Source: an uncultured Elusimicrobia bacterium (GTDB lineage: Bacteria; Elusimicrobiota; Elusimicrobia; 2-01-FULL-59-12). Taken from it: a stretch of DNA of 64,000 nt. The stretch is from contig CAZSAL010000004.1 of assembly GCA_964604825.1 (NCBI GenBank), positions 11,400 to 75,399 of the forward strand, in the 5' to 3' direction. The notes beneath the pieces were generated by a model. The model had not been told where the DNA came from. It searched no databases and saw only the letters and a program-made list of their open reading frames with translations. A program made the translations under genes and the position numbers. Of the stretch, positions 31,644 to 56,341 are shown in pieces (within the stretch, counting starts at the first letter, position 1; the number at the start of each line of letters is the position of its first letter).

Positions 31644-31676
31644 TCGGGAATATTTTTGCGTTTTCGACACTAATGC
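31644..31676 (+). promoter_or_regulatory. conserved 33-nt motif copy A (TCGGGAATATTTTTGCGTTTTCGACACTAATGC)
   Basis: One of three near-identical copies (also 33379..33411 and 56309..56341), each shortly upstream of a start codon. Confidence 0.5.
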
Positions 31677-31783
31677 TTGGACCGTTGTACAGGCATTGAT
31701 CAGGAGACGAGCATGGAGCGCCAGAAAGGGTCTGGGTACCCCGGATTGGGTGGGGAACTTGGCAATCAGGGTAGGCAGGATAC

Positions 31784-31834
31784 GCATTTTGTAAACAAAA
31801 TGCCCTCGCCCCCGATTGCGGCCCTTCGGGCCGC
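31784..31834. promoter_or_regulatory. candidate oriT region: two perfect hairpins immediately upstream of mobC
   Basis: GCATTTTG-TAAA-CAAAATGC at 31784-31803 and GCGGCCC-TTC-GGGCCGC at 31818-31834, between the 33-nt motif and the mobC SD. Confidence 0.35.
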
Positions 31835-31886
31835 GGCTCTTGCGGGCTCCTGCCTTACCCTGATTGCCGACCTTAAGGAGGTTTCA

Positions 31887-32285
31887 ATGAAGAGAAAACC
31901 GGCATCCGAATTGTTGAGCAAGATTGTGAACGTGCGCGTACCTTATGACGAATACCATGGATTCCGCAAGCTGGCGGAGTATCTCAAAGTCAGCCCGGGC
32001 AGGTTGATCCGACACATCCTCCGCGAAAACTACATGGGACAATCCGATCCCTTGCCCGACCACATGAAAGGCTTCCGCGAGGCCGTTAACCAGCTGGCGG
32101 CAGCCGGCCGTAATCTCAATCAACTAGCCCGCGCTGCCAACAGCGGGCAACGGGTCGATCAAACTGAGGCCCAAGCTGTCATGGCTGAGATCCAAGCAGC
32201 GCTCAATCGAATGGGTGTGGAAATCAAAGCCTACATGTCGCGGCGCCGCAAACTGGAATGCGTTGAGCCCCGAAAAGCCGCTTGA
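31887..32285 (+). CDS. mobC: MobC-family relaxosome accessory protein
   Basis: MobC-like LNQLARAANSG core. Strong SD AAGGAGG 7 nt upstream of ATG 31887. The same frame is open back to 31677/31713, so a longer form cannot be excluded. Confidence 0.65.
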   Translation: MKRKPASELLSKIVNVRVPYDEYHGFRKLAEYLKVSPGRLIRHILRENYMGQSDPLPDHMKGFREAVNQLAAAGRNLNQLARAANSGQRVDQTEAQAVMAEIQAALNRMGVEIKAYMSRRRKLECVEPRKAA

Positions 32286-33243
32286 TTTCTCTTACCGGCC
32301 GCTCGTTAAAGGGCATGGCCTGGTCGTTGCCTTGCCGCTCGCAGAACGCCTGCGGGCGGCAAGGGGCGTTCCGCAGGCCGTGGTCAAAGTAGCTGGCTAC
32401 GGTCACGGGACCCCGGCAGCCAAGCGCCTCCTCCGATACATCAGCCGCAAAGGGGAATTGCCGCTCGAAACTGAATTGGGGGAGGTTCTGACCACCACCG
32501 ATGAACAGAAGGCCCTAGTGAATGATTGGGCCATCGATTTTGACGCACGAGGGGACAGCCGAGATACCGTTCACCTCATCTTCTCCATGCCGCCGGGGTC
32601 TTCTCCCGAAGCCTTGCGCCGCACCATCCGGACGGTTCTGCAGCGGCGGTTCCAGGGGCATGAGGCGGTCTTTGCCATCCATGAAGACAAGAAGCATCCG
32701 CATGCCCATGTGGTGGTCAAGATGTTCAATGTCGAAACTGAAAAGAAATTGCGCCTCAACCGACCCGACCTTTATCGCCTGCGCGAAATCTATGCTGAAG
32801 CCGCGCGAGAGGAAGGGGTTGAAATGGCCGTGTCACCCCGGGCCGCGCGGGGAATCGGACGAAAGGGCAGCCGTCGCGTCGCTCATCAGCTTCATCGCAA
32901 GGGGATCGTACCGCGCGCTGAGAAAGAGACCGCACGTGAAGTCCTTGAAAGTCTGGAAAAAGGCGATCTACGGGCGAAACCCTGGGAAGTCGCCATGCGG
33001 CGCCGCAATGACCTCGAAAGGCAAGCCTACCGAACCGAAGCCGAACGGCTCCGCACCGCCGCGCTCCAAAACGTCAAAGACAGGGACGCGCTCTTGAAGG
33101 CGGCGGCCGACCTCGAACGATTTTCCCGCGCGATGCCCACGCCCAAGACACTCCGCCAAACAATGATTGACCAGCTTCTCCAATCGCCGCGTCCCAAGAA
33201 TCCGGGATCCTCCCGGGACCACGACGGCGGTCTTGAGCGCTAA
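32215..33243 (+). CDS. conjugative relaxase (MobA/VirD2-like, MOBP/MOBQ-type)
   Basis: N-terminal Tyr region (VVKVAGYGHG) and histidine triad HEDKKHPHAHVVV. The exact start is uncertain because the ORF overlaps the end of mobC. Confidence 0.75.
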   Translation: MWKSKPTCRGAANWNALSPEKPLDFSYRPLVKGHGLVVALPLAERLRAARGVPQAVVKVAGYGHGTPAAKRLLRYISRKGELPLETELGEVLTTTDEQKALVNDWAIDFDARGDSRDTVHLIFSMPPGSSPEALRRTIRTVLQRRFQGHEAVFAIHEDKKHPHAHVVVKMFNVETEKKLRLNRPDLYRLREIYAEAAREEGVEMAVSPRAARGIGRKGSRRVAHQLHRKGIVPRAEKETAREVLESLEKGDLRAKPWEVAMRRRNDLERQAYRTEAERLRTAALQNVKDRDALLKAAADLERFSRAMPTPKTLRQTMIDQLLQSPRPKNPGSSRDHDGGLER

Positions 33244-33378
33244 TCCCGATTCACCTCCACTGTTCGCTTTGTGCGCATCCCTCGTAGCTAGATAAATCTC
33301 CGCATGCTATTTTTCACCTTTTTATTTTGAGTTTCGTTGATTTTCTCCGCGCGAAATGAAAAGTGCCGAACCAGGTAA

Positions 33379-33411
33379 TCGGGAATATTTTCGAGTTTTC
33401 GACACTAACGC
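33379..33411 (+). promoter_or_regulatory. conserved 33-nt motif copy B, upstream of the T4SS operon
   Basis: TCGGGAATATTTTCGAGTTTTCGACACTAACGC, 40 nt upstream of ATG 33452. Confidence 0.5.
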
Positions 33412-33451: not shown

Positions 33452-33700
33452 ATGCAGATGGAAATTGAAGGACAAGAGGTCGTCTACAAGGATCTTCCTG
33501 ATCTCCAGGGGAAGTTGACGGGACTCCTGGACAAGATCACGCAGGAGCGCGTGCTCCATGACCAGGAAGCCAAGCGCCTGCGTCATCAGGAGAAAAAGCT
33601 CCGTGCGTTTCTAGGGAATTCCGGCACTATGCCGGTCGCCACGACGGATCGTGACTCCGACCCGGCAGATGTCGCAGGCAAAGGGGGCGCCCATGAATAA
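33452..33700 (+). CDS. small coiled-coil hypothetical protein preceding the pilin gene
   Basis: SD AAGGAG 6 nt before ATG 33452; charged helical sequence. Confidence 0.3.
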   Translation: MQMEIEGQEVVYKDLPDLQGKLTGLLDKITQERVLHDQEAKRLRHQEKKLRAFLGNSGTMPVATTDRDSDPADVAGKGGAHE

Positions 33701-33980
33701 CAGGGGGTTCCTCACATTGGGTCTGTTGGCTGTACTCATGCTTTCGGTCGCGCTTCCGGCCTTGGCTGACATGGGAGGCTTGCCTTGGGAAACACCCCTT
33801 CAAGTCGTTGTTAACGCTCTCAGCGGTTCCACCGGCACCCTCCTGGCCGTTCTGGCGGTCATGGCCGTTGGCGTGATGGCTTTAGCCGGGCGAGTCTCCT
33901 GGGCGCATGCAGGCGCGGTCCTTTTCGGAATCGCCTGCATCTTCGGTGCGGCGCGGATCGTGGCGATCTTCAATGGTTGA
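33693..33980 (+). CDS. virB2: T4SS pilin VirB2/TrbC family
   Basis: Signal peptide plus two hydrophobic helices (LPALADMGG...). Size and position before VirB3/VirB4. Confidence 0.7.
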   Translation: MNNRGFLTLGLLAVLMLSVALPALADMGGLPWETPLQVVVNALSGSTGTLLAVLAVMAVGVMALAGRVSWAHAGAVLFGIACIFGAARIVAIFNG

Positions 33981-34266
33981 GAACCGGAACAACGATCCGC
34001 TTTTTCTCGGGCTTACTCGTCCGGCGATGATCTGGGGCGTGCCCCAACCGGTTTTTATCCTGAACGGGATGGTATCCATGGTCGGGTTTCTTGTCTTCAA
34101 CTCCTTTTATCCGCTCTTCATTGGAGCGCCGGTCCTGCATGGAGTGGCCTATCTACTTTGTCTCAAAGAAGCCCGCATTTTTGACCTGTGGTTCATCAAA
34201 GCGCGCTTCCTGCGATGCCTGAATCGCCGCTATTGGGGAGCCAACAGCTACGACCCTTTCCAATGA
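33973..34266 (+). CDS. virB3: T4SS protein VirB3/TrbD
   Basis: About 97 aa with two TM segments; directly upstream of and coupled to VirB4. Confidence 0.65.
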   Translation: MVENRNNDPLFLGLTRPAMIWGVPQPVFILNGMVSMVGFLVFNSFYPLFIGAPVLHGVAYLLCLKEARIFDLWFIKARFLRCLNRRYWGANSYDPFQ

Positions 34267-36659
34267 TCCAACTCAACGAACATCGCCCCGCGAAAGGCCA
34301 CCTCTCCGGTTCGGAGATCCCGGTGGGGACCTTCATCCCTTACGCCTGCCATTACGATGACCAAACCATTCTGACCAAGAATGGGCACCTCATCCAATTT
34401 CTGCGACTGGACGGATTTGCCTTTGAGTCCGCCGACCCCGAGGACATCGATGTTCGAAAGCGCCTTCGGAACGTGCTTCTCAAATCTCTGGCCGGTCCCG
34501 AATATGCCTTATGGTTTCACACGATTCGCAGCCGACAGCCGGCCTATCCGGAAGGCCAGTTCGAACCTGGGTTCGCGGAGATTCTCAACAACCGCTGGAA
34601 AGAGAAGAACGCCGGCCGCAATTTATTCCAAAACAGTCTATACGTTTCGATAGTTAAACGCGGCCACGTAGGACATGCGGGAAGTTTTCAGCAATTCCTG
34701 GGAATCTTCACGCAGAAGGGCAGTGACGCAGCACATGCCGAGACCTTGGGGGCTGCCTGCCAGGATTTAAAAGACATCACCCATCGCCTTGAATCCACCT
34801 TATCCGATTATGGCCCACATCTCCTCACGACACATTCGACACCGGCGGGCGTTATGTCCGAGCCATTGGCTTTTCTAGCACGGCTGATCAATCTGGAAGA
34901 CCGCCCGGTACTGGTTCCCGCGATGGACCTCTCGCGTTATCTCGCCTGGAAGCGCCTTTTCTTTGGCGGCAATGCGATCGAGTGCCGCGGAGCGACCCAT
35001 AGCCGGTTGGCCGCGATGGTCTCTATAAAGGAATACGCACCGGAAACGTATGCAGGGCTTCTGGACGGGTTTTTCTCGCTGCCTTTTGAGTTTGTTCTCA
35101 CGCAGTCCTTTACCTTTGTGCACCGTCAAACGGCACTTTCCGCGATGCAGCTCCAACAGCGTCGCATGGAGCAAACCGGGGATCTGGCCGTTTCGCAGAT
35201 GGAAGAAATCGACCAGGCGCTGGATGACGCGACCGGTGGTGCGATCGCGTTCGGCCAGCATCACCTGACCGTTCAGCCCATCGTCAATACCATGAAGGAA
35301 CTGGATGAAGCCATCGCGCGCATCGACACCGAGCTCATGAACCTGGGCATCCTGGGCGTCCGCGAAGACCTCAACATGGAACCCTGCTTTTGGGCGCAGC
35401 TTCCGGGCAATTTCGAGTACATCGCCCGGCGCGCCACGGTAAGTACGGCCAATCTGGCCGGCTTTGTTTCACTCCATAATTTTCCAGCCGGTCGCCCCTC
35501 AGGCAATCACTGGGGTCCAGCCGTCACCGTCCTTGAGACCAAATCCGGGACGCCCTACTTCTTTAATTTCCATTCGGGAGATGTGGGGCACACGACGTTC
35601 ATCGGTCCGACCGGGTGCGGCAAGACGGCACTTCTCAATTTCCTATGCGCACAAAGCCGGAAGTTCGGTGGTCGGGTTTTTTATTTCGACCGCGACCGCG
35701 GCTCGGAGATTTTCCTGCGGGCATTGGGAGGGACTTATCGCAACCTGGGCGCCGCGCATCCTTCCGGCTTTAACCCGCTCCAACTGGCCGACACACCTTC
35801 TAACCGCGCCTTTCTCGTGGACTGGCTGAAAAGCATGCTCATAGCCTCTGGAGATGCCTTCACCGGTGAAGAATTGGCTCGTGTGGGCGAAGCCGTTGCC
35901 GGCAACTACAAGCTCGCCTGGGACCATCGGACACTTGATAACGTGGCTCCCTTTCTGGGAATGGGCGGCCCTGGGAGCCTGGCGGGACGGCTTGCAATCT
36001 GGCATGGCCAGGGGGAAAAACGAAATCTCTTTGGTAATTCTGCCGACCTCCTGTCCTTAGACCAAAAGGTGATGGCTTTCGAGATGGGTCCACTGATGAA
36101 CGACACTTCAAGTATCACCCCGGTACTTTTGTATCTCTTCCACCGGATCAGTTCGGCCCTGGACGGCACGCCCACGATGATCGTACTGGAAGAAGCCTGG
36201 GCACTCCTCAAAAATCCCATCTTTGCCGCCAAGATCGAGGATTGGCTCAAAACCTTCCGAAAGTTGAATGCCCTTGTCATCTTTGCCACACAGAGCGTCG
36301 AAGATGCCGTGCGTTCGGCGATCAGCCCGGCCCTGATTGGGCAAACCGCCACACACATCTACTTTCCGAATCCCAAAGCCACCGAGGAATACCGCAACGT
36401 CTTCAAACTGTCCGAACGAGAGATGCACCTCATCCGTGACGTGTTGGACAAAGAGAGCCGCTGCTTTTTGCTCAAACAGGCGCACGATTCGGTGGTTGCG
36501 CGCGCCGACTTCTCGCCCATGCCGGACATTCTGGCTGTCCTCTCCGGTCGTGCCGAGACTGTCGCGATCGTCGATCGCCTGCGCTCCGATGTGGGGGATG
36601 ATCCGGCAGTCTGGCTTCCACTTTTTCAACAGGAGGTTTCACATGGGCTCAAGTCTTAA
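34263..36659 (+). CDS. virB4: T4SS ATPase VirB4/TrbE
   Basis: Walker A GPTGCGKT and VirB4/CagE-like body. ATGA overlap with virB3. Confidence 0.9.
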   Translation: MIQLNEHRPAKGHLSGSEIPVGTFIPYACHYDDQTILTKNGHLIQFLRLDGFAFESADPEDIDVRKRLRNVLLKSLAGPEYALWFHTIRSRQPAYPEGQFEPGFAEILNNRWKEKNAGRNLFQNSLYVSIVKRGHVGHAGSFQQFLGIFTQKGSDAAHAETLGAACQDLKDITHRLESTLSDYGPHLLTTHSTPAGVMSEPLAFLARLINLEDRPVLVPAMDLSRYLAWKRLFFGGNAIECRGATHSRLAAMVSIKEYAPETYAGLLDGFFSLPFEFVLTQSFTFVHRQTALSAMQLQQRRMEQTGDLAVSQMEEIDQALDDATGGAIAFGQHHLTVQPIVNTMKELDEAIARIDTELMNLGILGVREDLNMEPCFWAQLPGNFEYIARRATVSTANLAGFVSLHNFPAGRPSGNHWGPAVTVLETKSGTPYFFNFHSGDVGHTTFIGPTGCGKTALLNFLCAQSRKFGGRVFYFDRDRGSEIFLRALGGTYRNLGAAHPSGFNPLQLADTPSNRAFLVDWLKSMLIASGDAFTGEELARVGEAVAGNYKLAWDHRTLDNVAPFLGMGGPGSLAGRLAIWHGQGEKRNLFGNSADLLSLDQKVMAFEMGPLMNDTSSITPVLLYLFHRISSALDGTPTMIVLEEAWALLKNPIFAAKIEDWLKTFRKLNALVIFATQSVEDAVRSAISPALIGQTATHIYFPNPKATEEYRNVFKLSEREMHLIRDVLDKESRCFLLKQAHDSVVARADFSPMPDILAVLSGRAETVAIVDRLRSDVGDDPAVWLPLFQQEVSHGLKS

Positions 36660-37401
36660 GAAATATCTTCTGCGACAACCGTCCTTTGGCGTCATGCTGG
36701 AACGCGCCGCAGGGCTAACGATATTCGTTCTGGTCGTTGTGATTCTGACCGAACTCGTCACCCCTACTTCTTCGCAGGCAACCCTACCGGTTCTTGATTA
36801 TGCGGCCGTGAGTCAGATGCTCGTTCAGACAGAGCAGTTTACTCAGCATCTCTCCATGATGGCCCAGCAGATCACGATGCTCAAACAACAGGTTCAGTCC
36901 ATGAGCGGCCATTACGGGATCGGAAATCTAAGCGGCCCCATCAATGGGTGGGGCACGAGTTCCTGGGGGGATATAGTCGGGATGGTGAACACCGGCGTGA
37001 ATCCCGGTGACGCCTCCCAAGTCCAGGCTTACAAAGCCGCCCACTCGCAGGTTGCCGCCCAGTACCCTCCGCTTGATCCGAACCTGGCCGCGTCCAACCC
37101 ACGCATGCAGGCGGTCTGGAGCGGAACCTATCAGGCGGCGATCACAGGTTTAAGCGCCGGCCAGGGCACGTTTAACGCCGCGTCCGTGCCTCTTGCCGAT
37201 CTGCAGGCCTACCAGAACCGGATTGAACATACCGATACCGTCAAAGCCGCGCTCGACTTAAACACGGCGGTCGGAATTAAATCGGCTCAGATCAACGCCG
37301 AGCTTCTGCGTACAAACGCCATGCAGTTGTATCTACAGGCCAATGCCCAGAACGCTATCGCGAGCGGACAGGCCGCGCAATCAGACTTTTTCGCCAATTA
37401 A
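36643..37401 (+). CDS. VirB5/TrbJ-like minor pilus protein
   Basis: SD AGGAGG then ATG 36643; signal anchor, helical secreted protein; position between VirB4 and VirB6. Confidence 0.5.
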   Translation: MGSSLKKYLLRQPSFGVMLERAAGLTIFVLVVVILTELVTPTSSQATLPVLDYAAVSQMLVQTEQFTQHLSMMAQQITMLKQQVQSMSGHYGIGNLSGPINGWGTSSWGDIVGMVNTGVNPGDASQVQAYKAAHSQVAAQYPPLDPNLAASNPRMQAVWSGTYQAAITGLSAGQGTFNAASVPLADLQAYQNRIEHTDTVKAALDLNTAVGIKSAQINAELLRTNAMQLYLQANAQNAIASGQAAQSDFFAN

Positions 37402-37411
37402 GGAGCCACTC

Positions 37412-38419
37412 ATGGATTCTTATCTCGGACTGAGCAATATCTTGAACCTCGTCGACGCGTCGATTCAGATCTATGTCCAATCCACCTATCAGGCGCTTTC
37501 CTCTGCGCTCGCGCCGACCTTGAAGCTTCTCATGATCCTCTATGTGGTCTTCTTCGGGATCGGACATTTAACAGGCCATACGCCGTTTAATCTCTGGCGA
37601 ACGCTAAGGCATCTCGCCGTCATGGTTGTCGTGTCGGCGTTTGTTACGCAATGGGATTTCTTCACCCTCTATTTCGCCAACCTCTTTACGAATGGCCCCG
37701 GGAGGCTAATGGCCATCATTTCCGGTGGATCGGCCGATCCGAACGCCATGCTGGGCGACGTGCTGGATCGTGGGGTCATGGCTGCCAACGCGATCAACCA
37801 GACGGCGAGCGTTTTCACACTGGGTTTTCTGATCGTGGGCTACAGCCTGTTTTACATGACGCTCATTTCGGTCGCGTACGCACTTTATCTCCTGGTGCTT
37901 TCAAAGATTGCGCTCTCTATTCTCCTGGGGCTGGCTCCATTCTTTTTTCTTTTTCTGCTTTTTGATGCCACGCGTGATTTCTTCGTGCATTACTTTCGGC
38001 AGGTCTTTAATTTCGCTCTCATTCCCATTTTCACTGCTGCGGTCCTGAGCATCATGCTCAAAATACCTCAGCAGGCCCTCATGCAGCTGCAGTCGGCACT
38101 CGCCGCACACAGCGGGCATGGGGGACTTTATTGCGTGTATGTCCTGCTCTCGTTCTTCATCCTCCTGGGGCTTCTGCACCAGGTCACGGGTTTGCCGCCG
38201 GCATCTCGGGCGGCGGCCTGCATCTGCATCCGGGTGGCTTCGCCGCGATGTCTACGGCGATCGCGGTCGTTGGCGCCCAGCGAGGGGCCAAGCGCATTGT
38301 GGAAGCCGCCAGGCGCGGACGTGAGAAGATCCGCTCCCTGCGCCGGGAGAAGCGATCATGAACGGACTCCTCTTTCAGAATCCCTTCAAGACGCTTTCCT
38401 ATCCAGCCGAGGCCTATGA
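37412..38419 (+). CDS. virB6: T4SS inner-membrane protein VirB6/TrbL
   Basis: Polytopic membrane protein; SD AAGGAG before ATG 37412. Confidence 0.65.
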   Translation: MDSYLGLSNILNLVDASIQIYVQSTYQALSSALAPTLKLLMILYVVFFGIGHLTGHTPFNLWRTLRHLAVMVVVSAFVTQWDFFTLYFANLFTNGPGRLMAIISGGSADPNAMLGDVLDRGVMAANAINQTASVFTLGFLIVGYSLFYMTLISVAYALYLLVLSKIALSILLGLAPFFFLFLLFDATRDFFVHYFRQVFNFALIPIFTAAVLSIMLKIPQQALMQLQSALAAHSGHGGLYCVYVLLSFFILLGLLHQVTGLPPASRAAACICIRVASPRCLRRSRSLAPSEGPSALWKPPGADVRRSAPCAGRSDHERTPLSESLQDAFLSSRGL

Positions 38420-39047
38420 CTGGTATCAGGACCGCTATCAATCGGTGCACGTGAGCCGCAATCGCTGGCTCTGTACCGCCTGGGCGGCATTAGCTCTGGC
38501 CCTTCTCGAAGCCGCCGCGCTGATGACTCTTATCCCGCTCAAGACCTCCGTTCCTTTTCTCATCAAAGAGGAGACCTCGGGAGCCGTTACGACTGTCGCG
38601 CCCCTGGCCGGCGACCCATCCATGACTTACGACGAAGCCATCCGCAAATACTTCCTCGGCCATTACGTCATTGACCGGGAGACCTACGATCCAGCGGATC
38701 TGGCGGAGAATTACCGCGCGGTTGATCTGATGTCGGGTTCCTCTGAGCGGCGGTTGTTTGATCAATGGATCGCTTCCAATAATCCGACCGGACCACTCGC
38801 TGTGTATGGAAATCAGATTCGGCGATTCGTCCACGTGAAATCAATCGCATTCCTGCCGGGACAGATGGCGCAGTTGCGCTTCACAGCGACGGAACAGAAG
38901 GCGTCGAGCGCTCCCAAAGTCAGCGAATGGATCGCCACGGTGACCTGGCGTTTTGGACCCGCACCCATCGCCGAGGCGGACCGGCTCGTCAATCCACTCG
39001 GATTCTGTATCACCCATTACCGCATCGACCAGGAGGTCATTTCATGA
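38358..39047 (+). CDS. virB8: T4SS protein VirB8
   Basis: Single N-terminal TM plus an NTF2-like periplasmic domain pattern typical of VirB8. Confidence 0.7.
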   Translation: MNGLLFQNPFKTLSYPAEAYDWYQDRYQSVHVSRNRWLCTAWAALALALLEAAALMTLIPLKTSVPFLIKEETSGAVTTVAPLAGDPSMTYDEAIRKYFLGHYVIDRETYDPADLAENYRAVDLMSGSSERRLFDQWIASNNPTGPLAVYGNQIRRFVHVKSIAFLPGQMAQLRFTATEQKASSAPKVSEWIATVTWRFGPAPIAEADRLVNPLGFCITHYRIDQEVIS

Positions 39048-39766
39048 TTCGCATTCGCCTTATGTTTAGTCTGCTGTTTCTCTTTGCGGCTTATTCTGTC
39101 CATGCAGAGAGCGTTCCGCGTGCCACGGTCACGGATGACCGGGTCAAATTGCTCGTCTACAGCCCCAACCAGGTCTATCGGCTCGTCGCGTATTACGGCT
39201 ATCAGATCGACATTCAAATCGGAGACGCTGAAGAGATCAAAACCATCGCGGCCGGCGACTCCATCGGCTGGCAGATCGTTGGCGCGGGCCAGCATATCTT
39301 CATCAAACCGATGGCCGATGGGGCCCGCACAAACCTCTCGCTCGTGACGAACAAGCGAACCTACATATTTGATCTTGTCGCCCGATCGCCCCTCAGGCGC
39401 GAGGACATCACATACCTCATACGCTTTCGCTATCCCGAAACGGAGGCGTTCGCTTCATTGGTGCCGAGTGCGGCAGACAAAGACGGACCGAACTTCAATC
39501 TCAATTACAAGATCGCGGGGGCAAAAAGCATTCAACCGCTTCATGTCTTTGATGACGGCCAATTTACCTATTTTGAATTTGATCATACCCGGTCTCTTCC
39601 GGCCATCTTTGTGGTCGGGTCTGACGGCAAAGAAAGCCTCGTGAATTACCGCATGGAAGGCACCTACGTGGTCGTCGAACGCCTGGGCGACTTTTACACG
39701 ATGCGCAGCGGCAATGAAACCGCTACCGCAATCAATCAGAAGAAATTGTTGACGGACCCCGCTTAA
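39044..39766 (+). CDS. virB9: T4SS outer-membrane core protein VirB9/TrbG
   Basis: Signal peptide, VirB9/CagX conserved beta-rich domain. ATGA overlap with virB8. Confidence 0.8.
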   Translation: MIRIRLMFSLLFLFAAYSVHAESVPRATVTDDRVKLLVYSPNQVYRLVAYYGYQIDIQIGDAEEIKTIAAGDSIGWQIVGAGQHIFIKPMADGARTNLSLVTNKRTYIFDLVARSPLRREDITYLIRFRYPETEAFASLVPSAADKDGPNFNLNYKIAGAKSIQPLHVFDDGQFTYFEFDHTRSLPAIFVVGSDGKESLVNYRMEGTYVVVERLGDFYTMRSGNETATAINQKKLLTDPA

Positions 39767-39777
39767 GGAGAGCCGAC

Positions 39778-40827
39778 ATGGAAGAACAGACACCCGAACC
39801 GAATCTGACTCCCGTGGTACCTGCCGAGATCCCGAGCGCTGTCCGTTCCGGGACGTCATGGAACCCGGGTCTTTGGCTCGCGCTGGCGGCGCTCTTGTTT
39901 CTGGCCTTCTTTTTCATGAAGGGGGGAAAGCGTAGAGCTCCAATGGCTGCAAATGAAAGCGACTTCAATACGGCAAGCGCCTCGCCCTCGACCGCCCCCA
40001 CGTTAGCGGTACCCACAATTCCTATTCTCCCACCGCCGGCGGCCTGGCAGAGACCGGAACAGGCGTCTCTGCGTGATGCGCGCCGCAATTCCCCCGTCGT
40101 CCTCTACACCAACACCGCCGCCACCCCCGGCGCGGGGTCGGGCGCCTCCTCCCCCGACCCCGCGGCCGGCCCTCCCATGCCTTCCGGGTTTCATCCCACC
40201 AGCAGCGGCTCGGCCCGTTCGTCGACCCTGGGCGACCGGGAATTCATCATCGCGGAAGGAAAACTCCTGGATGCGGTCCTCGAAACAGGCATCAACACGG
40301 ATCATCCGGGCATGCTCCGGGCGCTTATCTCGGACGATATCTACGGAGATTCCGGCCGCACGGTGCTCTTGCCGCGAGGCTCACGGCTGATCGGGCAGTA
40401 CGACGCGGACGTCGCTCAGGGACAATCCCGCGTCTTCGTCATCTGGCAGCGCGCCATCAGACCGGACGGCATCGACATCGCCTTGGGTTCCGGTGGGACT
40501 GATTCTCTCGGGGAAGCCGGGCTTTCAGGCGATGTGAACCGTCATTTCTTCACGATGTTCGGGGCGGCCACGCTTTTGTCTATTATCGGGGCTTCGGCTG
40601 CGACCATCGGCGTCGGTGCCCAGGATGCTGGGAACTCCCTGGCGACCTATCGGAGTTCGATGGCGCAGGGGTTCAGCGAGGCGACCAACAATGTGATGGG
40701 CGTGTTTGTGCGCATAAAACCCACGATCTCCGTCCCGCCCGGGACTTCGGTCAAAGTATTTGTGGCCCGTGATCTCTATTTCGATCCGGCGGCTATCGCT
40801 TCCCGCCGGGTCCAGGTTATTCCATGA
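39778..40827 (+). CDS. virB10: T4SS core protein VirB10/TrbI
   Basis: TM helix, Pro-rich linker, C-terminal VirB10 beta-barrel domain. Confidence 0.8.
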   Translation: MEEQTPEPNLTPVVPAEIPSAVRSGTSWNPGLWLALAALLFLAFFFMKGGKRRAPMAANESDFNTASASPSTAPTLAVPTIPILPPPAAWQRPEQASLRDARRNSPVVLYTNTAATPGAGSGASSPDPAAGPPMPSGFHPTSSGSARSSTLGDREFIIAEGKLLDAVLETGINTDHPGMLRALISDDIYGDSGRTVLLPRGSRLIGQYDADVAQGQSRVFVIWQRAIRPDGIDIALGSGGTDSLGEAGLSGDVNRHFFTMFGAATLLSIIGASAATIGVGAQDAGNSLATYRSSMAQGFSEATNNVMGVFVRIKPTISVPPGTSVKVFVARDLYFDPAAIASRRVQVIP

Positions 40828-41798
40828 GCCGAGTAGCCCTTCGAACGTTTCTATCGCCTCTTGATTCCCTCTTGAGCGAGGATGACGTGAGCGAGATCTC
40901 AATCAATCAGCCCGGGGAAGCCTGGGTCGAGCGCAAAGGGGAAATGAAGAGGCTCGATCTGCCTGCTCTCGATCCCGAACACCTTCGTCTCATGGCGGAT
41001 TTAATCGCGGAATCCTCCCAACAGCAACTGTCGCCCGAAAAGCCGCTTCTTTCCGCAACTCTGCCCGAGGGGCACAGAGTTCAGATTGTTCTCCCGCCCG
41101 CCGCTGAAGACTTCTGCTGTTCGATACGAAAACCGGGCGTCATTCACTACGACCTGGCCGCTTATGAAGAACAAGGGGCCTTTGCCGAAACCGCCACCGC
41201 TCATGAGGTATCGCCCGACGAAGCTCTCCTTACCGGCCTTTTGCGCCATCACGACATTCCGACCTTCATCCGCACCGCGGTCCAAAGTCGCCGCAATATC
41301 CTGATTTCAGGGGGAACTTCGACCGGCAAAACGACTTTCTTAAACGCTTGTCTTCAGGCCATCCCCGATCACGAAAGGTTAGTCACTGTGGAAGATGCCC
41401 GCGAAGTGCGCGTGCGCCAGCCCAACCGCGTTCATCTTCTGAGTTCGCGCGGCGGCCAGGGGCGAGCCCAGGTCACGCCTCAACAGCTGATCGAAGCGTC
41501 TTTACGCCTGCGGCCCGACCGCATCATCATGGGCGAATTGCGAGGGGTCGAAGCCTTCGCTTTTCTGCGCGCGATTAATACGGGTCATCCGGGCTCGATC
41601 GCAACGATTCACGCTGACTCACCCGAGATGGCCTTTGAACAACTGGCCCTCATGGTCCTGCAAGCCGATCTCGGCATGACTCGGCCGCAAGTTCTGGACT
41701 ACGTTCGTCATGCCATTCCCATAGTGCTTCAGCTCCACCGAGGCGACGCCGGACGTCGGGTGGTCTCGGAAATCTACTACGCGGGGTATTCCTCATGA
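40824..41798 (+). CDS. virB11: T4SS ATPase VirB11
   Basis: Walker A GGTSTGKTT; PulE/VirB11 family. Confidence 0.85.
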   Translation: MSRVALRTFLSPLDSLLSEDDVSEISINQPGEAWVERKGEMKRLDLPALDPEHLRLMADLIAESSQQQLSPEKPLLSATLPEGHRVQIVLPPAAEDFCCSIRKPGVIHYDLAAYEEQGAFAETATAHEVSPDEALLTGLLRHHDIPTFIRTAVQSRRNILISGGTSTGKTTFLNACLQAIPDHERLVTVEDAREVRVRQPNRVHLLSSRGGQGRAQVTPQQLIEASLRLRPDRIIMGELRGVEAFAFLRAINTGHPGSIATIHADSPEMAFEQLALMVLQADLGMTRPQVLDYVRHAIPIVLQLHRGDAGRRVVSEIYYAGYSS

Positions 41799-43537: not shown

Positions 43538-43590
43538 CGCACCCTCGCGGAGCCTGAAGCCCGAGGCATTACCTCAAAGGAGATACCACC

Positions 43591-44145: not shown

Positions 44146-44154
44146 GGCTAAGCC

Positions 44155-44565: not shown

Positions 44566-44589
44566 ACAGCACCGTCGGGAGGTTTATCC

Positions 44590-46326: not shown

Positions 46327-46335
46327 GAGGTCATC

Positions 46336-48615: not shown

Positions 48616-48619
48616 CCCC

Positions 48620-51590: not shown

Positions 51591-51637
51591 CTGACTCGCT
51601 TCCTCTGGAGGCGAGAACTTAAAACAAGGAGAACAAC

Positions 51638-53778: not shown

Positions 53779-54453
53779 ATGGAAACCACCCAACAAGCTG
53801 ACTTGATCCGGGATTTGCCGCCCTGCATTCGTCCTCTGTCGCGACTGGGAACCTTGGGTGTGGAAGCGCTCAAGGAGGCCGAGCTGCTTTCGCTGGCGGT
53901 CCGGTCACGCTCGCTGCGCTGGCCAGAGGAAGTGCTGGGTCGTCACAGTGTGAAGGAATTGCTGGGGATGCCCTGGCAGAGACTGGCTTCGCTGCGCGGG
54001 ATAAGCCATGCGGGAGCGGCGGCGCTTTTAGCTTCGGCGGAACTGGTACGGCGCGCGTCGGGCCAACCGGATGCGGGCCGGCCCGTTCTTCAATCGGTGG
54101 GGGATGTGGCGGTGCAGGCTCTGGAGATACGAGACAAGAAAAAAGAGTACCTGCTCGCCTTCTTTCTGAATGCCCGGCATCAGCTGATCGCTAAAGAGAT
54201 CATCTCGATCGGGACGCTGACGGCGTCTCTGGCACATCCTCGAGAGATCTTTGCTCCGGCGATTGGACAGGCCGCGGCGGGGGTCGTGCTCGTGCATAAC
54301 CACCCCTCGGGAGATCCTTCACCCTCGGATGAAGACGTCCGACTGACCAAGCGCATCGCACAGGCGGGCCAGATCATGGGCATAGAGTTGCTCGACCACC
54401 TTATTCTGGCTTCGTCTGGAACTTTTTCGTTTAAGACCAGCGGTGCGCTCTGA
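53779..54453 (+). CDS. radC: RadC-like JAB-domain protein
   Basis: HNHPSGDPSPSDEDVRLT JAMM motif and RadC family C-terminus. Confidence 0.85.
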   Translation: METTQQADLIRDLPPCIRPLSRLGTLGVEALKEAELLSLAVRSRSLRWPEEVLGRHSVKELLGMPWQRLASLRGISHAGAAALLASAELVRRASGQPDAGRPVLQSVGDVAVQALEIRDKKKEYLLAFFLNARHQLIAKEIISIGTLTASLAHPREIFAPAIGQAAAGVVLVHNHPSGDPSPSDEDVRLTKRIAQAGQIMGIELLDHLILASSGTFSFKTSGAL

Positions 54454-54983
54454 TGGATGCTCGAACGTTTACGGAGCTTCATTTGGATTGCAGGAAACGT
54501 GTGCTTTTCGGGATTCGAGGGTATGTACGCAATCACGATGAGGCGGAGGATGTGACGGCTTCGGCTTTTGCGACCGCCTTTCAAAAGCGCAAGAGCTTCC
54601 GTAATGAGTCATCCTTCTACACCTGGGTTTATCGGATCGCCGTCAACCGTGCGACGTCGTCCCTGCGCAGGCGGCGGACGGTATCGCTGGATCTGCTTGA
54701 GGGAGCGTTACCGGATTCATTGATCGAATCGGACTTGATGGACCGCGCGATTGACCGGGAGGAGTGCTGCCGGAAGCTGCGCTGGGCGCTTCGGAAAATT
54801 CCGGTCTATTACCGTCAGGTCCTGGTGGACCATTTCGTCCGGGGCTTTTCGATCCGGCAGATCGCCCGGCGTCATCGCATTCCGATCGGAACGGTGTTGA
54901 GCCGGATCTTCAGCGCCAAGCGGCGGCTTCGGCGGGCGTGGAAAGGCAGGGAATCAATAAGAGCCGACTTAAGAGGGTCGTAA
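54453..54983 (+). CDS. ECF-type RNA polymerase sigma factor
   Basis: Sigma70 region 2 (YTWVYRIAVNR) and region 4 HTH (FSIRQIARRHRIPIGTVLSRI). Confidence 0.8.
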   Translation: MDARTFTELHLDCRKRVLFGIRGYVRNHDEAEDVTASAFATAFQKRKSFRNESSFYTWVYRIAVNRATSSLRRRRTVSLDLLEGALPDSLIESDLMDRAIDREECCRKLRWALRKIPVYYRQVLVDHFVRGFSIRQIARRHRIPIGTVLSRIFSAKRRLRRAWKGRESIRADLRGS

Positions 54984-55275
54984 ATACTTAAAAAATACGA
55001 GGACCCTCGCACTTATTCTCGCTTCGCTCCGTCACCGCCTGCTCCGCTCGAATGGGGATGCGCTATTAGGGGGGATGAATTGACGGGCAAAAAATGGCGT
55101 TTTGAGGGTGACAGGCAGAACTCACCGTTGGCTCACAGAAAGTCCCAGGCGTCAGAGGACAAAAGACTGTGGGCATTTCAGCCGTGAATTTGGCCTGATC
55201 GCCCCATTGATGCTTTCGGGTTTCCGAGCCAACCTTAGAGTCGAGGGGCATCGATTCGGAAAGGGCCACCAAACC

Positions 55276-55944
55276 ATGCGGATTCTGCTTGTTGATGGAG
55301 ACAAACGATCCAGCCTCTTTTTAAAAGAAGGGCTGTCCCGTGAGGGATTCGCCGTCGACGTTGCCGGCGACGCTGAAGAAGCCCTGCAGATGACGGGAAA
55401 CATTCCCTATGACGGTCTGCTCTTGAATGGCCGCTTTCCAGACCGGACCGCTTACGGGCTTCTCGCCGCGCTGCGCAAACAGGGTTGCCCTGCCGCCATC
55501 CTCATGCTGTCGGGGCAAAACCCTCCGCCGGGAAATACCTCCTTGCCTCACCCCTCGGAATCCAGCCCCCGTCTTACGGACATCACCGCCCGCCTGTACG
55601 CGGCGATGGAGACGAGCCGGGCCCTTCAGGAAAGCGAAGGTCACTCACCCCAACTTCGATCGGGCGACCTGCGAATGGATCTGGGTGCGCACCGCGTCCT
55701 GTGGCGCGGAAAAGAGGTCGATCTCACCAAAAAAGAATTCGAACTCCTGGAATGCCTGCTCCGCCATCCGGGCCGGGTCCTCTCCCAGCACGCCATCGCT
55801 CAGGAAATCTGGAACATCGACTTTCAGGGCCATTCGAACATCGTCGAAACCCACGTCAAACGCCTGCGCGCGAAATTGGGGGATCGGTTTCCCGTTCATC
55901 TCATCCAGACCATTCGCGGTGTCGGCTACCGACTCGTCGTGTAA
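55276..55944 (+). CDS. OmpR/PhoB-family response regulator with an atypical receiver (phospho-acceptor Asp position occupied by Asn)
   Basis: Receiver domain plus winged helix (GVGYRLVV). Aligns LLLNGRFP where canonical receivers have LLLD; the acidic pocket is VDGD. Confidence 0.75.
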   Translation: MRILLVDGDKRSSLFLKEGLSREGFAVDVAGDAEEALQMTGNIPYDGLLLNGRFPDRTAYGLLAALRKQGCPAAILMLSGQNPPPGNTSLPHPSESSPRLTDITARLYAAMETSRALQESEGHSPQLRSGDLRMDLGAHRVLWRGKEVDLTKKEFELLECLLRHPGRVLSQHAIAQEIWNIDFQGHSNIVETHVKRLRAKLGDRFPVHLIQTIRGVGYRLVV

Positions 55945-56008
55945 GTCAGTCCCTCTGCCATACTCCAGCTGCCGGTTCCGCTGGCTGAATTCCTCATATC
56001 TCAACTTC

Positions 56009-56105
56009 CGCCATTTTCCCGCCATCTGATCGCCATCTGACCGCCATGTAAATATCATCAAATCGCCATCCAATCTCCATCGTCCCGTCAGCGGATCGCC
56101 AGATT
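56009..56105. repeat. array of CGCCAT-containing direct repeats with 11-bp periodicity; candidate response-regulator operator
   Basis: CGCCAT at 56012, 56021, 56032, 56043 and 56065; degenerate copies CTCCAT at 56076 and CGCCAG at 56098. Spacings are 9, 11, 11, 22, 11 and 22 bp. Confidence 0.5.
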
Positions 56106-56308
56106 CACTCCTTAGAATTTAAGGCGGTGAATGTTCGTGTTAATAACTGATCCCTTCATCGGAACCCTTTCAGACCTGGCCCCAGGCCGGTCCCGGACAG
56201 CCGACACCCCCCAATTCTCCGCATGCCCAATAGTCCTATTTTTACGTGGCACGCCCTCCGATCTTCCGTCGAGAGAGCTTCTTTTTCAATCATGCGGGTT
56301 TAGGGAAG

Positions 56309-56341
56309 TCGGGAATATTTTTCGATTTTCGACACTAATGC
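56309..56341 (+). promoter_or_regulatory. conserved 33-nt motif copy C, upstream of the PorV-like gene
   Basis: TCGGGAATATTTTTCGATTTTCGACACTAATGC, ending 14 nt before ATG 56356. Confidence 0.5.

What the first reader, a model, noticed from the sequence alone, without database searches (positions are those of the whole stretch)
31644..56341. A conserved 33-nt motif occurs three times, each immediately upstream of a start codon (mobC leader, T4SS operon, PorV-like outer membrane protein gene)
The three copies are 31644-31676, 33379-33411 and 56309-56341. They are 28-30/33 identical, with blocks TCGGGAATATTTT ... TTTTCGACACTAAYGC; only a 3-4 nt central segment varies. All are in the same orientation, 14-40 nt upstream of an ATG or of the mobC leader. 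The motif is not palindromic and does not fit sigma70 or sigma54 consensus well. It links the conjugation genes to a distant envelope/T9SS-like locus, which suggests a common regulator (perhaps one of the two ECF-type sigma factors in the window) or a conserved 5' leader.
Basis: seen in the sequence. Interest (0 to 1): 0.6.

Follow-up and report, generated by a model that had tools for sequence, protein, structure and literature searches.

The report
Sigma-factor promoter shared by conjugation operons
The three 33-base repeats are most likely copies of one specialised promoter, through which a mobile element's own sigma factor, probably one fused to a signal-receiver domain, switches on its DNA-transfer genes and a cell-surface gene cluster together.

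Summary
TCGGGAATATTTT-N4-TTTTCGACACTAAYGC occurs exactly three times (31644, 33379, 56309, all + strand), with zero expected by chance. The repeat is only 33-38 nt long.

All three copies lie inside one ~47-kb integrative conjugative element (ICE). They precede oriT-mobC-relaxase, the VirB/D4 operon, and a six-gene operon: PorV-like, Big_5, Collar, TPR, histidine kinase, REC-ECF-sigma fusion.

In related metagenomic elements the same positions keep two blocks, CGGGAATATTTT and (A/T)CTAA(C/T), 17-18 nt apart, while the spacer varies. This is the layout of an ECF-sigma promoter (-35 GGAAT, -10 CTAA).

The core pattern also sits 13-16 nt upstream of two chromosomal PorV...REC-sigma operons that have no conjugation genes and no stand-alone ECF sigma in the 21 kb fetched. 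Changes in the -35 box follow changes in the REC-sigma region 4.2 helix.

Best model: the kinase phosphorylates the REC-sigma fusion, which transcribes its own operon plus the mob and T4SS operons. The stand-alone ECF sigma (54453-54983) remains a rival or a co-reader.

Sigma70, sigma54, RNA-leader, operator and mobile-repeat readings were tested and not supported. No transcription start was mapped.

The parts
31644..31676 (+). Motif copy 1, the predicted ECF-type promoter of the oriT-mobC-relaxase unit. The -35 core GGAAT is at 31647-31651 and the -10 core ACTAA at 31669-31673.
   Evidence: Orthologous sites lie before the mobC leader in L016 (9376) and L019 (1492), and a homologous site (91.7% over 36 nt) lies upstream of a mobC-containing unit in L008 (4030).
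31774..31803 (-). oriT core. GGCAGGATA (31774-31782) is the reverse complement of TATCCTG|CC, a MOBP-type nic-like site on the minus strand. Next to it is the inverted repeat GCATTTTGT/ACAAAATGC (31784-31803).
   Evidence: GGCAGGATA is invariant in four elements, and the adjacent inverted repeat is kept through compensatory changes. The nic consensus YATCCTG|Y comes from my own knowledge of IncP/Ti systems.
31887..33243 (+). mobC (31887-32285) and a MobA/VirD2-type relaxase (ORF 32215-33243; the called product of 326 aa implies a start near 32263).
   Evidence: Pfam MobC/NikA-like and Relaxase. A 100% identical 326-aa protein is P0121.
33379..33411 (+). Motif copy 2, the predicted ECF-type promoter of the T4SS operon. 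GGAAT is at 33382-33386 and ACTAA at 33404-33408.
   Evidence: Orthologous sites lie before the T4SS operon in L016 (11108) and L018 (11036).
33452..44985 (+). T4SS operon: an 82-aa ORF, VirB2, B3, B4, a B5-like gene, B6, B8, B9, B10, B11 and VirD4, followed by three SSB genes. Gene gaps are small or overlapping.
   Evidence: Pfam; intergenic gaps.
54453..54983 (+). Stand-alone ECF sigma factor. Its start overlaps the radC stop. It is a rival or additional reader of the motif.
   Evidence: Pfam Sigma70_r2/r4_2. About 90 homologues form a discrete metagenomic family. Its region 4.2 helix GTVLSRI is identical to that of the REC-sigma. No motif copy lies upstream of it.
55276..55944 (+). OmpR-family regulator with an atypical receiver: Asn replaces the phospho-acceptor Asp. 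It is followed by an 11-nt-phased CGCCAT array.
56309..56341 (+). Motif copy 3, the predicted ECF-type promoter of the PorV-like...REC-sigma operon. GGAAT is at 56312-56316 and ACTAA at 56334-56338.
   Evidence: Orthologous sites occur in L009, L010, L011, L018, L022 and in the chromosomal loci L020 and L021.
56356..61181 (+). PorV/PorQ-family outer-membrane protein (56356-57483), a Big_5 protein with a FlgD_ig/PorZ-like C-terminus (about 57452-58897), a Collar-domain protein (58915-59877) and a TPR protein (59880-61181).
   Evidence: Pfam and NCBIfam. Gaps of -20, 17 and 2 nt.
61201..62592 (+). HAMP/HisKA/HATPase_c sensor histidine kinase, the predicted partner of the REC-sigma.
   Evidence: It is always adjacent to the REC-sigma in relatives.
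62609..63568 (+). Fusion of a receiver domain and an ECF sigma factor: REC 1-121, sigma2 134-219, flexible linker, sigma4 243-312. It is the last gene of the operon driven by motif copy 3 and the predicted cognate sigma of the motif.
   Evidence: Pfam. D11, E12, D54, T84 and K106 are conserved in 32 homologues. AlphaFold model pLDDT 87. The parts resemble the PhoB receiver and AlgU. The region 4.2 helix varies with the -35 box.

Best explanation
**What it is.** The 33-nt motif is a promoter of the ECF (group IV sigma) type. Its -35 block is CGGGAATATTTT and its -10 block is (A/T)CTAA(C/T), 17-18 nt after GGAAT.

**What it drives.** The promoter is private to an integrative conjugative element. 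Three copies drive three transcription units: oriT-mobC-relaxase; the VirB/D4 T4SS operon with its SSB genes; and the operon PorV-like, Big_5, Collar, TPR, histidine kinase, REC-ECF-sigma.

**Who reads it.** The most likely reader is the REC-sigma fusion (62609-63568). Inferred sequence: the neighbouring kinase phosphorylates Asp54 of the receiver domain. This releases or activates the sigma2/sigma4 part. The sigma then binds core RNA polymerase and starts transcription a few bases downstream of CTAA. The result would be positive feedback on its own operon and co-induction of DNA processing, the mating channel and the surface module.

**Shown versus inferred.** Shown: the motif, its positions, its bipartite conservation across relatives, its link to the REC-sigma operon, and conserved phospho-acceptor residues. 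Inferred: sigma dependence, the transcription start, phosphorylation control and the signal.
For: **1. Promoter anatomy.** Sixteen sites from about nine elements put the information in CG-GGAAT-ATTTT and (A/T)CTAA(C/T), with a low-information spacer of 17 or 18 nt. Every site is on the coding strand, directly upstream of an operon. The layout matches ECF hallmarks: an A-tract/AAC-type -35 such as GGAACTT or ATTGAAACCTTT, followed by a short -10 (PMC8103513).

**2. Orthologous positions keep the boxes but not the spacer.**
- L009 PorV: TCGGGAATATTTTTCAACTTCTCAGTCTAAC.
- L016 mobC and T4SS: CGGGAATATTTTC...GTCTAAC.
- L018 PorV and T4SS: CGGGAAGAT...TTTCTCAC.
- L022 PorV: TTGGAATATTC...GGTACTAAC.

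**3. Each element has its own version.** All promoters within one element share that version.

**4. Autoregulation layout.** Copy 3 heads a tight operon (gaps -20 to 19 nt) that ends in the REC-sigma gene.

**5. The pattern goes with the REC-sigma operon.**
- L018 has PorV...REC-sigma directly upstream of mobC and the T4SS, with two promoter copies and no stand-alone ECF sigma in the 21 kb fetched.
- The chromosomal loci L020 and L021 have no T4SS and no ECF-sigma homologue in the 21 kb fetched. Each has exactly one match to [GCT]GAAT-N17/18-[AT]CTAA[CT] in 21 kb. That match lies 13-16 nt before the PorV start, where 0.08-0.14 matches per locus are expected.

**6. Co-variation.**

| REC-sigma region 4.2 helix | -35 box | Loci |
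|---|---|---|
| GTV(L/M)SR(I/L) | GAAT | five |
| ATVKSRF | AAAAC | L011 |
| GTVWSRV | GGAAG | L018 |

The stand-alone ECF sigma begins the helix with the same GTVL in L011 (the rest is lost to a frameshift in that assembly).

**7. The receiver looks functional.** D11, E12, D54 and T84 are invariant and K106 nearly so in 32 homologues. The model shows a PhoB-like REC followed by an AlgU-like sigma2-linker-sigma4.
Against: - No transcription start, binding or expression data exist.
- The stand-alone ECF sigma has the same region 4.2 helix (GTVLSRI) as the window's REC-sigma, so it may read the same -35 box.
- A position weight matrix trained only on ICE sites did not rank the chromosomal PorV sites first: L021 was rank 4 at 10.1 bits and L020 fell below the cut-off. 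Their support rests on a relaxed core pattern chosen after seeing the data, plus their position.
- Whether the full L018 and L022 elements lack the ECF sigma is inferred only from contig lengths missing from the hit list. It was not read from sequence.
- The co-variation rests on seven loci.
- In the window the spacer TTTTCGAC is also identical in all three copies. A promoter alone does not require that, so a second factor or recent homogenisation may be involved.
- The leader at copy 3 would be very short: 17 nt from CTAA to the ATG.
Confidence: 0.6

Rival explanations
1. The motif is an ECF-type promoter, but its reader is the stand-alone ECF sigma (54453-54983), alone or together with the REC-sigma. 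For example, it could be an early factor made on entry into a recipient that then switches on the mob, T4SS and PorV...REC-sigma operons.
For: - Its region 4.2 helix GTVLSRI is identical to that of the window's REC-sigma, and its region 2 is similar.
- It is conserved at the same place (radC, sigma, then OmpR-like, then PorV) in L009, L011 and the P0026 contig, and without the OmpR-like gene in L010.
- It lies downstream of a conserved, highly structured ~260-nt element that looks like a single-strand promoter. The homologous element directly precedes its homologue in L012/L013.
Against: - No motif copy precedes its own operon.
- L012/L013 carry a 48% homologue and have no motif within 10 kb on either side.
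- The motif persists in L018, L020, L021 and L022, where no homologue is seen in the fetched sequence.
- In L011 the -35 box changed to AAAAC while this sigma's helix still begins GTVL.
Confidence: 0.2
2. The motif is a promoter read by a host-encoded ECF sigma of the RpoE/AlgU type, which would tie transfer to the host's envelope-stress response.
For: The boxes resemble RpoE/AlgU-type promoters (GGAACTT...TCTGA/TCAAA; PMC8103513 and my own knowledge). Both element-encoded sigmas score best against RpoE-like models.
Against: - The window has no other site, including its 19 kb of chromosomal genes.
- Each ICE lineage has its own version, shared by all its promoters. That points to an element-encoded reader.
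- The strict motif was absent from 185,579 reference genomes.
Confidence: 0.07
3. The motif is an operator for a DNA-binding regulator (the OmpR-like protein, MobC or another element protein) rather than the promoter itself.
For: - All 33 nt, spacer included, are nearly identical among the three window copies. That is more than sigma contacts need.
- Copies 2 and 3 contain a direct repeat of TTTTCGA.
- An OmpR-like gene lies next to copy 3.
Against: - In relatives the spacer and the TTTTCGA repeat are not kept. Only the two boxes at fixed spacing are.
- The motif persists where the OmpR-like gene is absent.
- A better candidate OmpR-type site exists elsewhere: the 11-nt-phased CGCCAT array at 56008-56102.
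- The motif has no dyad symmetry.
Confidence: 0.06
4. The motif is transcribed and acts as a conserved 5' leader RNA element.
For: It has the same orientation and lies close to the start codons at all three sites.
Against: - No Rfam match at E <= 1.
- The predicted folds differ between copies and are no better than shuffles, with z-scores of -0.87, +0.87 and -0.59.
- Conservation is in two blocks with a variable 17/18-nt spacing and shows no paired covariation.
- Distances to the start codon range from 14 to 210 nt.
Confidence: 0.02
5. The motif is a remnant or end of a repeated mobile sequence, or a recombination site.
For: There are three near-identical copies within one element.
Against: - The repeat is only 33-38 nt long with unrelated flanks, and it has no inverted-repeat partner.
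- Only three copies exist in 64 kb, and essentially none in the large collections.
- The copies sit at orthologous, gene-proximal positions in diverged elements.
Confidence: 0.01

Closest known systems
ECF sigma-dependent promoters (E. coli RpoE GGAACTT...TCAAA; B. subtilis SigW TGAAACCTTT...CGTA; P. aeruginosa AlgU)
   Same: A bipartite -35 with an A-tract followed by a T-rich stretch, a short -10, and 16-18 nt spacing. The promoter sits in front of the operon that encodes the sigma (positive autoregulation). The sigma has only sigma2 and sigma4 (PMC8103513).
   Different: The -35 reads GGAAT rather than GGAAC in most lineages. The -10 is CTAA rather than CGT. No anti-sigma gene is evident. 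The regulon consists of conjugation genes on a mobile element. The likely sigma carries an N-terminal receiver domain.
PorY-PorX-SigP cascade of Porphyromonas gingivalis (PMC4800418)
   Same: A histidine kinase, a receiver-domain protein and an ECF sigma act together to control genes that include a PorV-family outer-membrane protein. In P. gingivalis the response regulator binds the sigma directly.
   Different: Here the receiver and the sigma are one polypeptide, and the kinase is encoded next to it. No core T9SS genes (PorK/L/M/N, Sov) are in the locus. The targets include mob and T4SS operons. The sequence relationship to SigP or PorX was not tested.
PhyR-NepR-EcfG general stress response of Alphaproteobacteria
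   Same: A receiver domain is fused to an ECF-sigma-like domain and controlled by phosphorylation (10.1101/2019.12.11.873521).
   Different: In PhyR the sigma-like domain is N-terminal and acts as a decoy (an anti-anti-sigma), not as a sigma. Here the order is REC then sigma2-sigma4. The sigma part has intact region 2 and region 4 matches, and there is no NepR-like partner.
Global regulons of conjugative plasmids (IncP KorA/KorB/TrbA operators) and ICE master activators (SetCD of SXT, BisDC of ICEclc) - from my own knowledge
   Same: One element-encoded factor and one repeated DNA site coordinate the relaxosome and mating-pair-formation operons.
   Different: Those sites are operators or activator boxes used with the host's housekeeping sigma. 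Here the repeated site appears to be the promoter itself, read by an element-encoded alternative sigma.

Membership tests
ECF (group IV) sigma-dependent promoter | Bipartite -35 (A-tract/AAC-like, T-rich 3' side) and short -10, with a spacer of about 16-18 nt | tested here: met
   GGAAT-N17/18-(A/T)CTAA. The information profile peaks at the two blocks. The reference boxes GGAACTT and ATTGAAACCTTT are in PMC8103513. The -10 lacks the textbook CGT in the window copies, but L016, L008c and L009 have (C)GTCTAA.
ECF (group IV) sigma-dependent promoter | Located upstream of transcription units and co-oriented with them | tested here: met
   All three copies and all 13 sites in relatives are on the coding strand, directly upstream of operons.
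ECF (group IV) sigma-dependent promoter | A cognate ECF sigma is encoded nearby, typically in an operon preceded by the same promoter | tested here: met
   Copy 3 heads the operon that ends in the REC-sigma gene. The same layout occurs in L009, L011, L018, L020, L021 and L022.
ECF (group IV) sigma-dependent promoter | Boxes conserved and spacer free at orthologous sites; boxes co-vary with the sigma | tested here: met
   Region 4.2 helix against -35 box, (seven loci only).
ECF (group IV) sigma-dependent promoter | Transcription starts 5-10 nt downstream of the -10 and depends on the sigma | not testable with these tools
   This needs 5'-RACE or dRNA-seq, in-vitro transcription or reporter assays.
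Sigma70 housekeeping promoter | TTGACA-N16-18-TATAAT | tested here: not met
   No match at copies 1 and 2. At copy 3 the only match is TCGACA-17-AATAAT, whose -10 overlaps the start codon, and it is not conserved in the other copies.
Sigma54 promoter | TGGCAC-N5-TTGCW (GG and GC 10 nt apart) | tested here: not met
   Read directly. Only copy 1 has a TTGC at the right distance, and it falls in the variable 4-nt segment that differs in copies 2 and 3.
Known cis-regulatory RNA (Rfam) | Match to a covariance model, or a shared stable fold | tested here: not met
   No Rfam match at E <= 1. The folds are not significant and differ between copies.
OmpR/PhoB-type operator | Direct repeats at a 10-11 nt period; dependence on the adjacent OmpR-like gene | tested here: not met
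   The repeat spacing differs between copies (7 or 9 nt) and is absent in relatives. The motif is present where the OmpR-like gene is absent.
Repeated mobile sequence (MITE or IS end) | Longer repeat unit, terminal inverted repeats, many copies | tested here: not met
   The unit is 33-38 nt with unrelated flanks. There are three copies in the window, and the large scans are nearly empty.
PorXY-SigP / T9SS regulon | Core T9SS genes (PorK/L/M/N, Sov) and separate PorX and SigP proteins | tested here: not met
   Only a PorV/PorQ-family protein and a protein with a PorZ-like C-terminus were found. No other T9SS family turned up in the window proteins scanned. The receiver and the sigma are fused. 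This is an analogy, not membership.

The most novel reading that the evidence does not exclude
The element runs a private two-tier sigma circuit.

- **Tier 1:** a stand-alone ECF sigma, made early in a new host from an Frpo-like single-strand promoter (the structured repeats at 50288-50548 and 53253-53498).
- **Tier 2:** a kinase-controlled REC-ECF-sigma fusion.

Both would read the same element-specific promoter. The relaxosome, the mating channel and a PorV-like surface module would then be transcribed only by the element's own holoenzyme, in response to an envelope or cell-contact signal. Each ICE lineage would have evolved its own promoter version, which would insulate co-resident relatives from each other.
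Probability: 0.2. Interest if true: 0.8.

Novelty: new variant of a known kind. Interest (0 to 1): 0.55.

Why it matters
**Regulatory design.** In well-studied elements, conjugation genes are controlled by repressors, activators or quorum signals that act on housekeeping promoters. Here the promoters themselves appear to belong to an alternative sigma factor carried by the element. The likeliest candidate is a response regulator whose output domain is a sigma factor. I found no description of that architecture: it is absent from the ECF classification I read. Only about seven full-length representative clusters appeared among the 150 best hits in a library of 1.84 billion proteins.

**Consequences if confirmed.** This would be a direct two-component-to-sigma route for switching on horizontal gene transfer. 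It would also provide a set of naturally diverged sigma/promoter pairs, and a function (regulation and perhaps mating-surface display) for PorV-like modules outside Bacteroidota.

**Testability.** The hypothesis can be tested in E. coli with synthetic genes and three short promoters.

Tried and rejected
- **Miscounted spacer.** My first loose search used a spacer one base too long and missed even the true sites. I discarded it.
- **Genome scan.** The strict pattern found only three hits in unrelated contexts, in AT-rich genomes, which I treat as chance.
- **Metagenome scan.** One relative (L008) and one unrelated-context match (L007).
- **Viral contigs.** The motif scan gave two unrelated-context hits that I read as chance. 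The relaxase and REC-sigma protein scans found nothing.
- **Plasmid database.** A REC-sigma protein search found no fused homologue, only separate response regulators and sigmas.
- **Taxonomy.** Cluster names gave no organism. The only named relative is a 45%-identical REC-sigma from an Elusimicrobiota MAG. The host remains unknown.
- **tRNA integration site.** None in the window.
- **Sigma70, sigma54, Rfam and RNA folding.** All negative.
- **Anti-sigma gene.** None convincing after the ECF sigma.
- **ICE-trained weight matrix on chromosomal loci.** It did not rank the PorV sites first. Only the relaxed core pattern plus position supports them.
- **Possible fourth site near the excisionase-like gene.** It lies just outside the window and is confounded by coding-sequence conservation. 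I left it open.
- **Missing sequence.** The P0026 contig could not be read because no DNA was available. Flanks of 10 kb could not link the sigma genes and the T4SS promoters on a single fetched locus, except in L018.

Full report
**Observation**

The three sites read TCGGGAATATTTTTGCGTTTTCGACACTAATGC (31644), TCGGGAATATTTTCGAGTTTTCGACACTAACGC (33379) and TCGGGAATATTTTTCGATTTTCGACACTAATGC (56309).
- A search allowing three mismatches finds only these three sites, all on the + strand. None of 100 shuffles gave a match.
- The repeat unit is 33-38 nt long and its flanks are unrelated.
- Looser k-mer searches, a weight-matrix search and a core-pattern search find no further convincing site in the 64 kb. 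The next best is a 17.6-bit match inside a gene at 25250, against 28-29 bits for the three copies.

**Context**

The window comes from a 151-kb metagenomic contig, JGI 3300041809, Ga0455670_0000768.
- Positions 1 to about 19,000 carry chromosomal biosynthesis genes.
- From about 19.2 kb onward the order is: RmuC, an ABC-3C-like system, and a type I restriction-modification system.
- Next come motif copy 1, the oriT, mobC and the relaxase. Then motif copy 2 and a complete VirB2-B11/VirD4 operon with three SSB genes.
- After that: a toxin-antitoxin pair, a PRTRC-type E2/ThiF/JAB/ParB set, radC, a stand-alone ECF sigma and an OmpR-like regulator.
- Motif copy 3 follows, then PorV-like, Big_5, Collar, TPR, histidine kinase and a REC-ECF-sigma fusion.
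- Just beyond the window lie ORF6N, an excisionase-like gene and an integrase.

All three copies therefore lie inside one integrative conjugative element (ICE) of roughly 47 kb. The PorV locus is part of that element, not a separate chromosomal locus.

The interval between copy 1 and mobC is the oriT. GGCAGGATA, the reverse complement of the MOBP-type nic sequence TATCCTG|CC, is invariant in four related elements. It adjoins an inverted repeat that is kept through compensatory changes.

**Relatives**

The strict motif is essentially absent from 596 Gb of reference genomes and from the metagenome collection, apart from one relative, L008. I therefore reached relatives through proteins.
- The stand-alone ECF sigma has about 90 metagenomic homologues at 45-89% identity, then a gap down to 38%.
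- The relaxase has about 75 homologues.
- The REC-sigma has about 40 full-length homologues. Only about seven full-length hits appeared among the 150 best in a library of 1.84 billion cluster representatives.

The gene order VirD4, SSB..., ParB, radC, ECF sigma, (OmpR-like), PorV..., kinase, REC-sigma..., integrase is conserved in L009, L011 and one contig without DNA. L010 keeps the same order in the part fetched, without a called ParB or OmpR-like gene.

**The motif at orthologous positions**

| Locus | Position | Sequence |
|---|---|---|
| L010 | before PorV | identical 40 nt |
| L009 | before PorV | TCGGGAATATTTTTCAACTTCTCAGTCTAAC |
| L016 | before the mobC leader | TCGGGAATATTTTCCACCTATCCCAGTCTAAC |
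| L016 | before the T4SS operon | ACGGGAATATTTTCGACCCATCGCCGTCTAAC |
| L022 | before PorV | TTGGAATATTCACCTGCCCCTCGGTACTAAC |
| L011 | before PorV | CCGAAAACCTTTCGATGCCTCCTGGTACTAAC |
| L019 | before mobC | AAGCAAACTTTTTGACCCCTTTTGGCTCTAAT |
| L018 | before PorV | TCGGGAAGATATTCGGCATCTTTGTTTCTCAC |
| L018 | before the T4SS operon | TCGGGAAGATTTCGACCTTTTTTGTTTCTCAC |
| L008 | upstream of a mobC-containing unit | three to four tandem copies |

Aligned on the two blocks, the information lies in CG-GGAAT-ATTTT and (A/T)CTAA(C/T). The blocks are 17 or 18 nt apart, and the spacer and outer flanks carry little information.

This is the anatomy of an ECF-sigma promoter. The reference -35 boxes are GGAACTT (RpoE) and ATTGAAACCTTT (SigW), with a short -10 and frequent positive autoregulation (PMC8103513).

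Each element has its own version of the boxes, and all promoters within one element share that version. This argues for a reader encoded on the element.

**Which sigma**

Both element sigmas are two-domain ECF proteins of the RpoE-like kind. They are 32% identical to each other and share the region 4.2 helix GTVLSRI. Four observations favour the REC-sigma.

1. Copy 3 heads a tight operon (gaps -20 to 19 nt) that ends in the REC-sigma gene. This is the classical autoregulatory layout. No copy precedes the radC/ECF-sigma operon.
2. In L018 the PorV...REC-sigma module lies directly upstream of oriT, mobC, the relaxase and the T4SS. It has two promoter copies and no stand-alone ECF sigma in the 21 kb fetched.
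3. L020 and L021 carry the PorV...kinase/REC-sigma operon in chromosomal surroundings (Mfd in both; a transglycosylase and a tRNA methyltransferase in L020), with no T4SS or ECF-sigma homologue in the 21 kb fetched. L021 comes from the same metagenome as the window.
   - Each locus has exactly one match to the core pattern [GCT]GAAT-N17/18-[AT]CTAA[CT] in 21 kb.
   - That match lies 13-16 nt before the PorV start codon. By chance 0.08-0.14 matches per locus are expected.
4. The REC-sigma recognition helix varies with the -35 box:
   - GTV(L/M)SR(I/L) goes with GAAT in five loci.
   - ATVKSRF goes with AAAAC in L011.
   - GTVWSRV goes with GGAAG in L018.
   - The stand-alone sigma's helix still begins GTVL in L011; the rest is lost to a frameshift in that assembly.

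Caveats:
- The weight matrix trained on ICE sites did not rank the chromosomal sites first.
- The core pattern was defined after seeing the data.
- The co-variation rests on seven loci.
- Absence of the stand-alone sigma from the complete L018 and L022 elements is inferred, not read from sequence.

**The REC-sigma itself**

The acidic pocket (D11, E12), the phospho-acceptor D54 and T84 are invariant, and K106 is nearly invariant, in 32 homologues. The AlphaFold model has a mean pLDDT of 87. It shows a receiver domain (1-121), sigma2 (134-219), a disordered linker and sigma4 (243-312). The nearest solved folds are the PhoB receiver and AlgU, and no solved chain covers both parts as a fusion. 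The adjacent HAMP/HisKA kinase is the obvious partner.

The ECF classification paper I read describes C-terminal and a few N-terminal extensions, and two-component systems encoded nearby. It describes no receiver-sigma fusion.

The closest functional precedent is PorY-PorX-SigP of P. gingivalis. There a kinase, a receiver protein and an ECF sigma cooperate to control genes that include porV (PMC4800418).

**Rejected readings**

- **Sigma70.** No match at copies 1 and 2. At copy 3 there is only a non-conserved match whose -10 overlaps the start codon.
- **Sigma54.** The GG/GC spacing is met only in copy 1, within the variable segment (read directly).
- **RNA leader.** No Rfam hit and no shared or significant fold.
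- **OmpR-type operator.** The internal repeats are inconsistent and absent in relatives, and the motif persists without the OmpR-like gene.
- **Mobile repeat.** The unit is too short, with unrelated flanks, too few copies and orthologous gene-proximal positions.

**Mechanism proposed**

*Inferred:* an unknown envelope or contact signal activates the kinase, which phosphorylates D54 of the REC-sigma. The freed sigma2/sigma4 binds core polymerase and opens the three promoters. This gives positive feedback through its own operon and co-expression of the relaxosome, the mating channel and the PorV-like surface module. The stand-alone ECF sigma may read the same -35 box and could prime the system.

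*Shown:* only the sequence anatomy, the conservation, the linkage and the co-variation.

**Verdict**

The feature is a new variant of a known kind: an ECF promoter regulon that is placed on a conjugative element and probably read by a rare response-regulator/sigma fusion. Interest is moderate to fairly high, because the hypothesis is specific and cheap to test.

Noticed in passing
window 53253-53498 and 50288-50548 (also L009 2266-2564, L011 1176-1452, L012/L013 9618-9997): Two copies (78% identical) of a ~260-nt non-coding element with nested inverted repeats. One precedes orf86-radC-ECF sigma and the other precedes the 211-aa ORF at 50545. The first copy is 84-95% conserved in relatives whose proteins are only 60-87% identical. 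A homologous element sits directly before the ECF-sigma homologue in L012/L013. The minus strand (the predicted transferred strand) folds far better than shuffles (z = -7.2 and -5.7). Both copies share the same architecture, and one inner hairpin is kept by a different sequence. This is a candidate Frpo-like single-strand promoter of a leading region (compare PMC11541004)..
   Followed up: partly
window 31774-31803: The 'mobC leader' is an oriT. It holds an invariant GGCAGGATA (a MOBP-like nic TATCCTG|CC on the minus strand) next to an inverted repeat kept through compensatory changes. In L018 the same oriT is inverted relative to mobC (L018 9560-9605).
   Followed up: partly
window 56008-56102: An array of CGCCAT-like hexamers in strict 11-nt register (eight of nine slots filled). 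It lies just after the OmpR-like gene and about 210-300 nt upstream of motif copy 3. L011 has a CGTCAGC array at the same place. These may be binding sites of the OmpR-like protein.
   Followed up: partly
window 55276-55944: The OmpR-family regulator has Asn where the phospho-acceptor Asp should be (LLLNGRFPD), and its receiver scores below the Pfam cut-off. It is probably an atypical, phosphorylation-independent regulator.
   Followed up: no
L020 4742-10960; L021 4022-10969: The PorV-like, Big_5, TPR, kinase and REC-sigma gene set also exists as a chromosomal operon beside housekeeping genes (Mfd in both loci). One instance comes from the same metagenome as the window. The ICE module may have been captured from such an operon, and cross-talk between the two is possible.
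   Followed up: partly
L004 20076-20111 (about window 64528, just outside the window); L009 20247: A weaker motif-like site (TGTGAATATTCTGGCGGCGAATGCGTCTAAC, 16.9 bits) lies at the 5' end of the excisionase-like gene before the integrase. A counterpart exists in L009. It may be a fourth promoter for excision genes, but the similarity could instead reflect a conserved protein N-terminus.
   Followed up: partly
L008 4031, 4170, 4267, 4673: Three to four tandem copies of the promoter motif lie within 650 nt, upstream of two unknown ORFs and a mobC homologue, right after chromosomal gap and cysE-like genes. The reason for the tandem arrangement is unknown.
   Followed up: partly
L011 4355-4400 and L019 1440-1485: In this sub-lineage an extra conserved block (GATCGATCCATAAACTCC...CGAATCCAC.TTTTTT) lies about 45 nt upstream of the -35 box, both at a PorV promoter and at a mobC promoter of a small integrase-bearing element. 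It may be an activator site or an UP-like element. L019 may be a mobilisable element that uses the sigma of an L011-type ICE.
   Followed up: no
window 45949-53119: A PRTRC-type cassette: an E2-like protein, ThiF, JAB and a 493-aa ParB that matches TIGR03734. It sits between the SSB genes and radC.
   Followed up: no
window 43591-44985: Three consecutive SSB-family genes directly follow VirD4.
   Followed up: no
window 25250-25285: TGGGAATATTTCTGGTTTAAACAATATTAGC is the only other site with a -35 block like the motif (17.6 bits). It lies inside the 1037-aa ABC-3C-like gene, about 300 nt before hsdM. It is probably chance.
   Followed up: no
window 18960-19476: This is the likely left boundary of the element. 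GC content drops from about 0.51 to 0.45-0.48, and the gene content changes from biosynthesis genes to RmuC and defence genes. No tRNA gene is present, and attachment-site repeats were not searched for.
   Followed up: no
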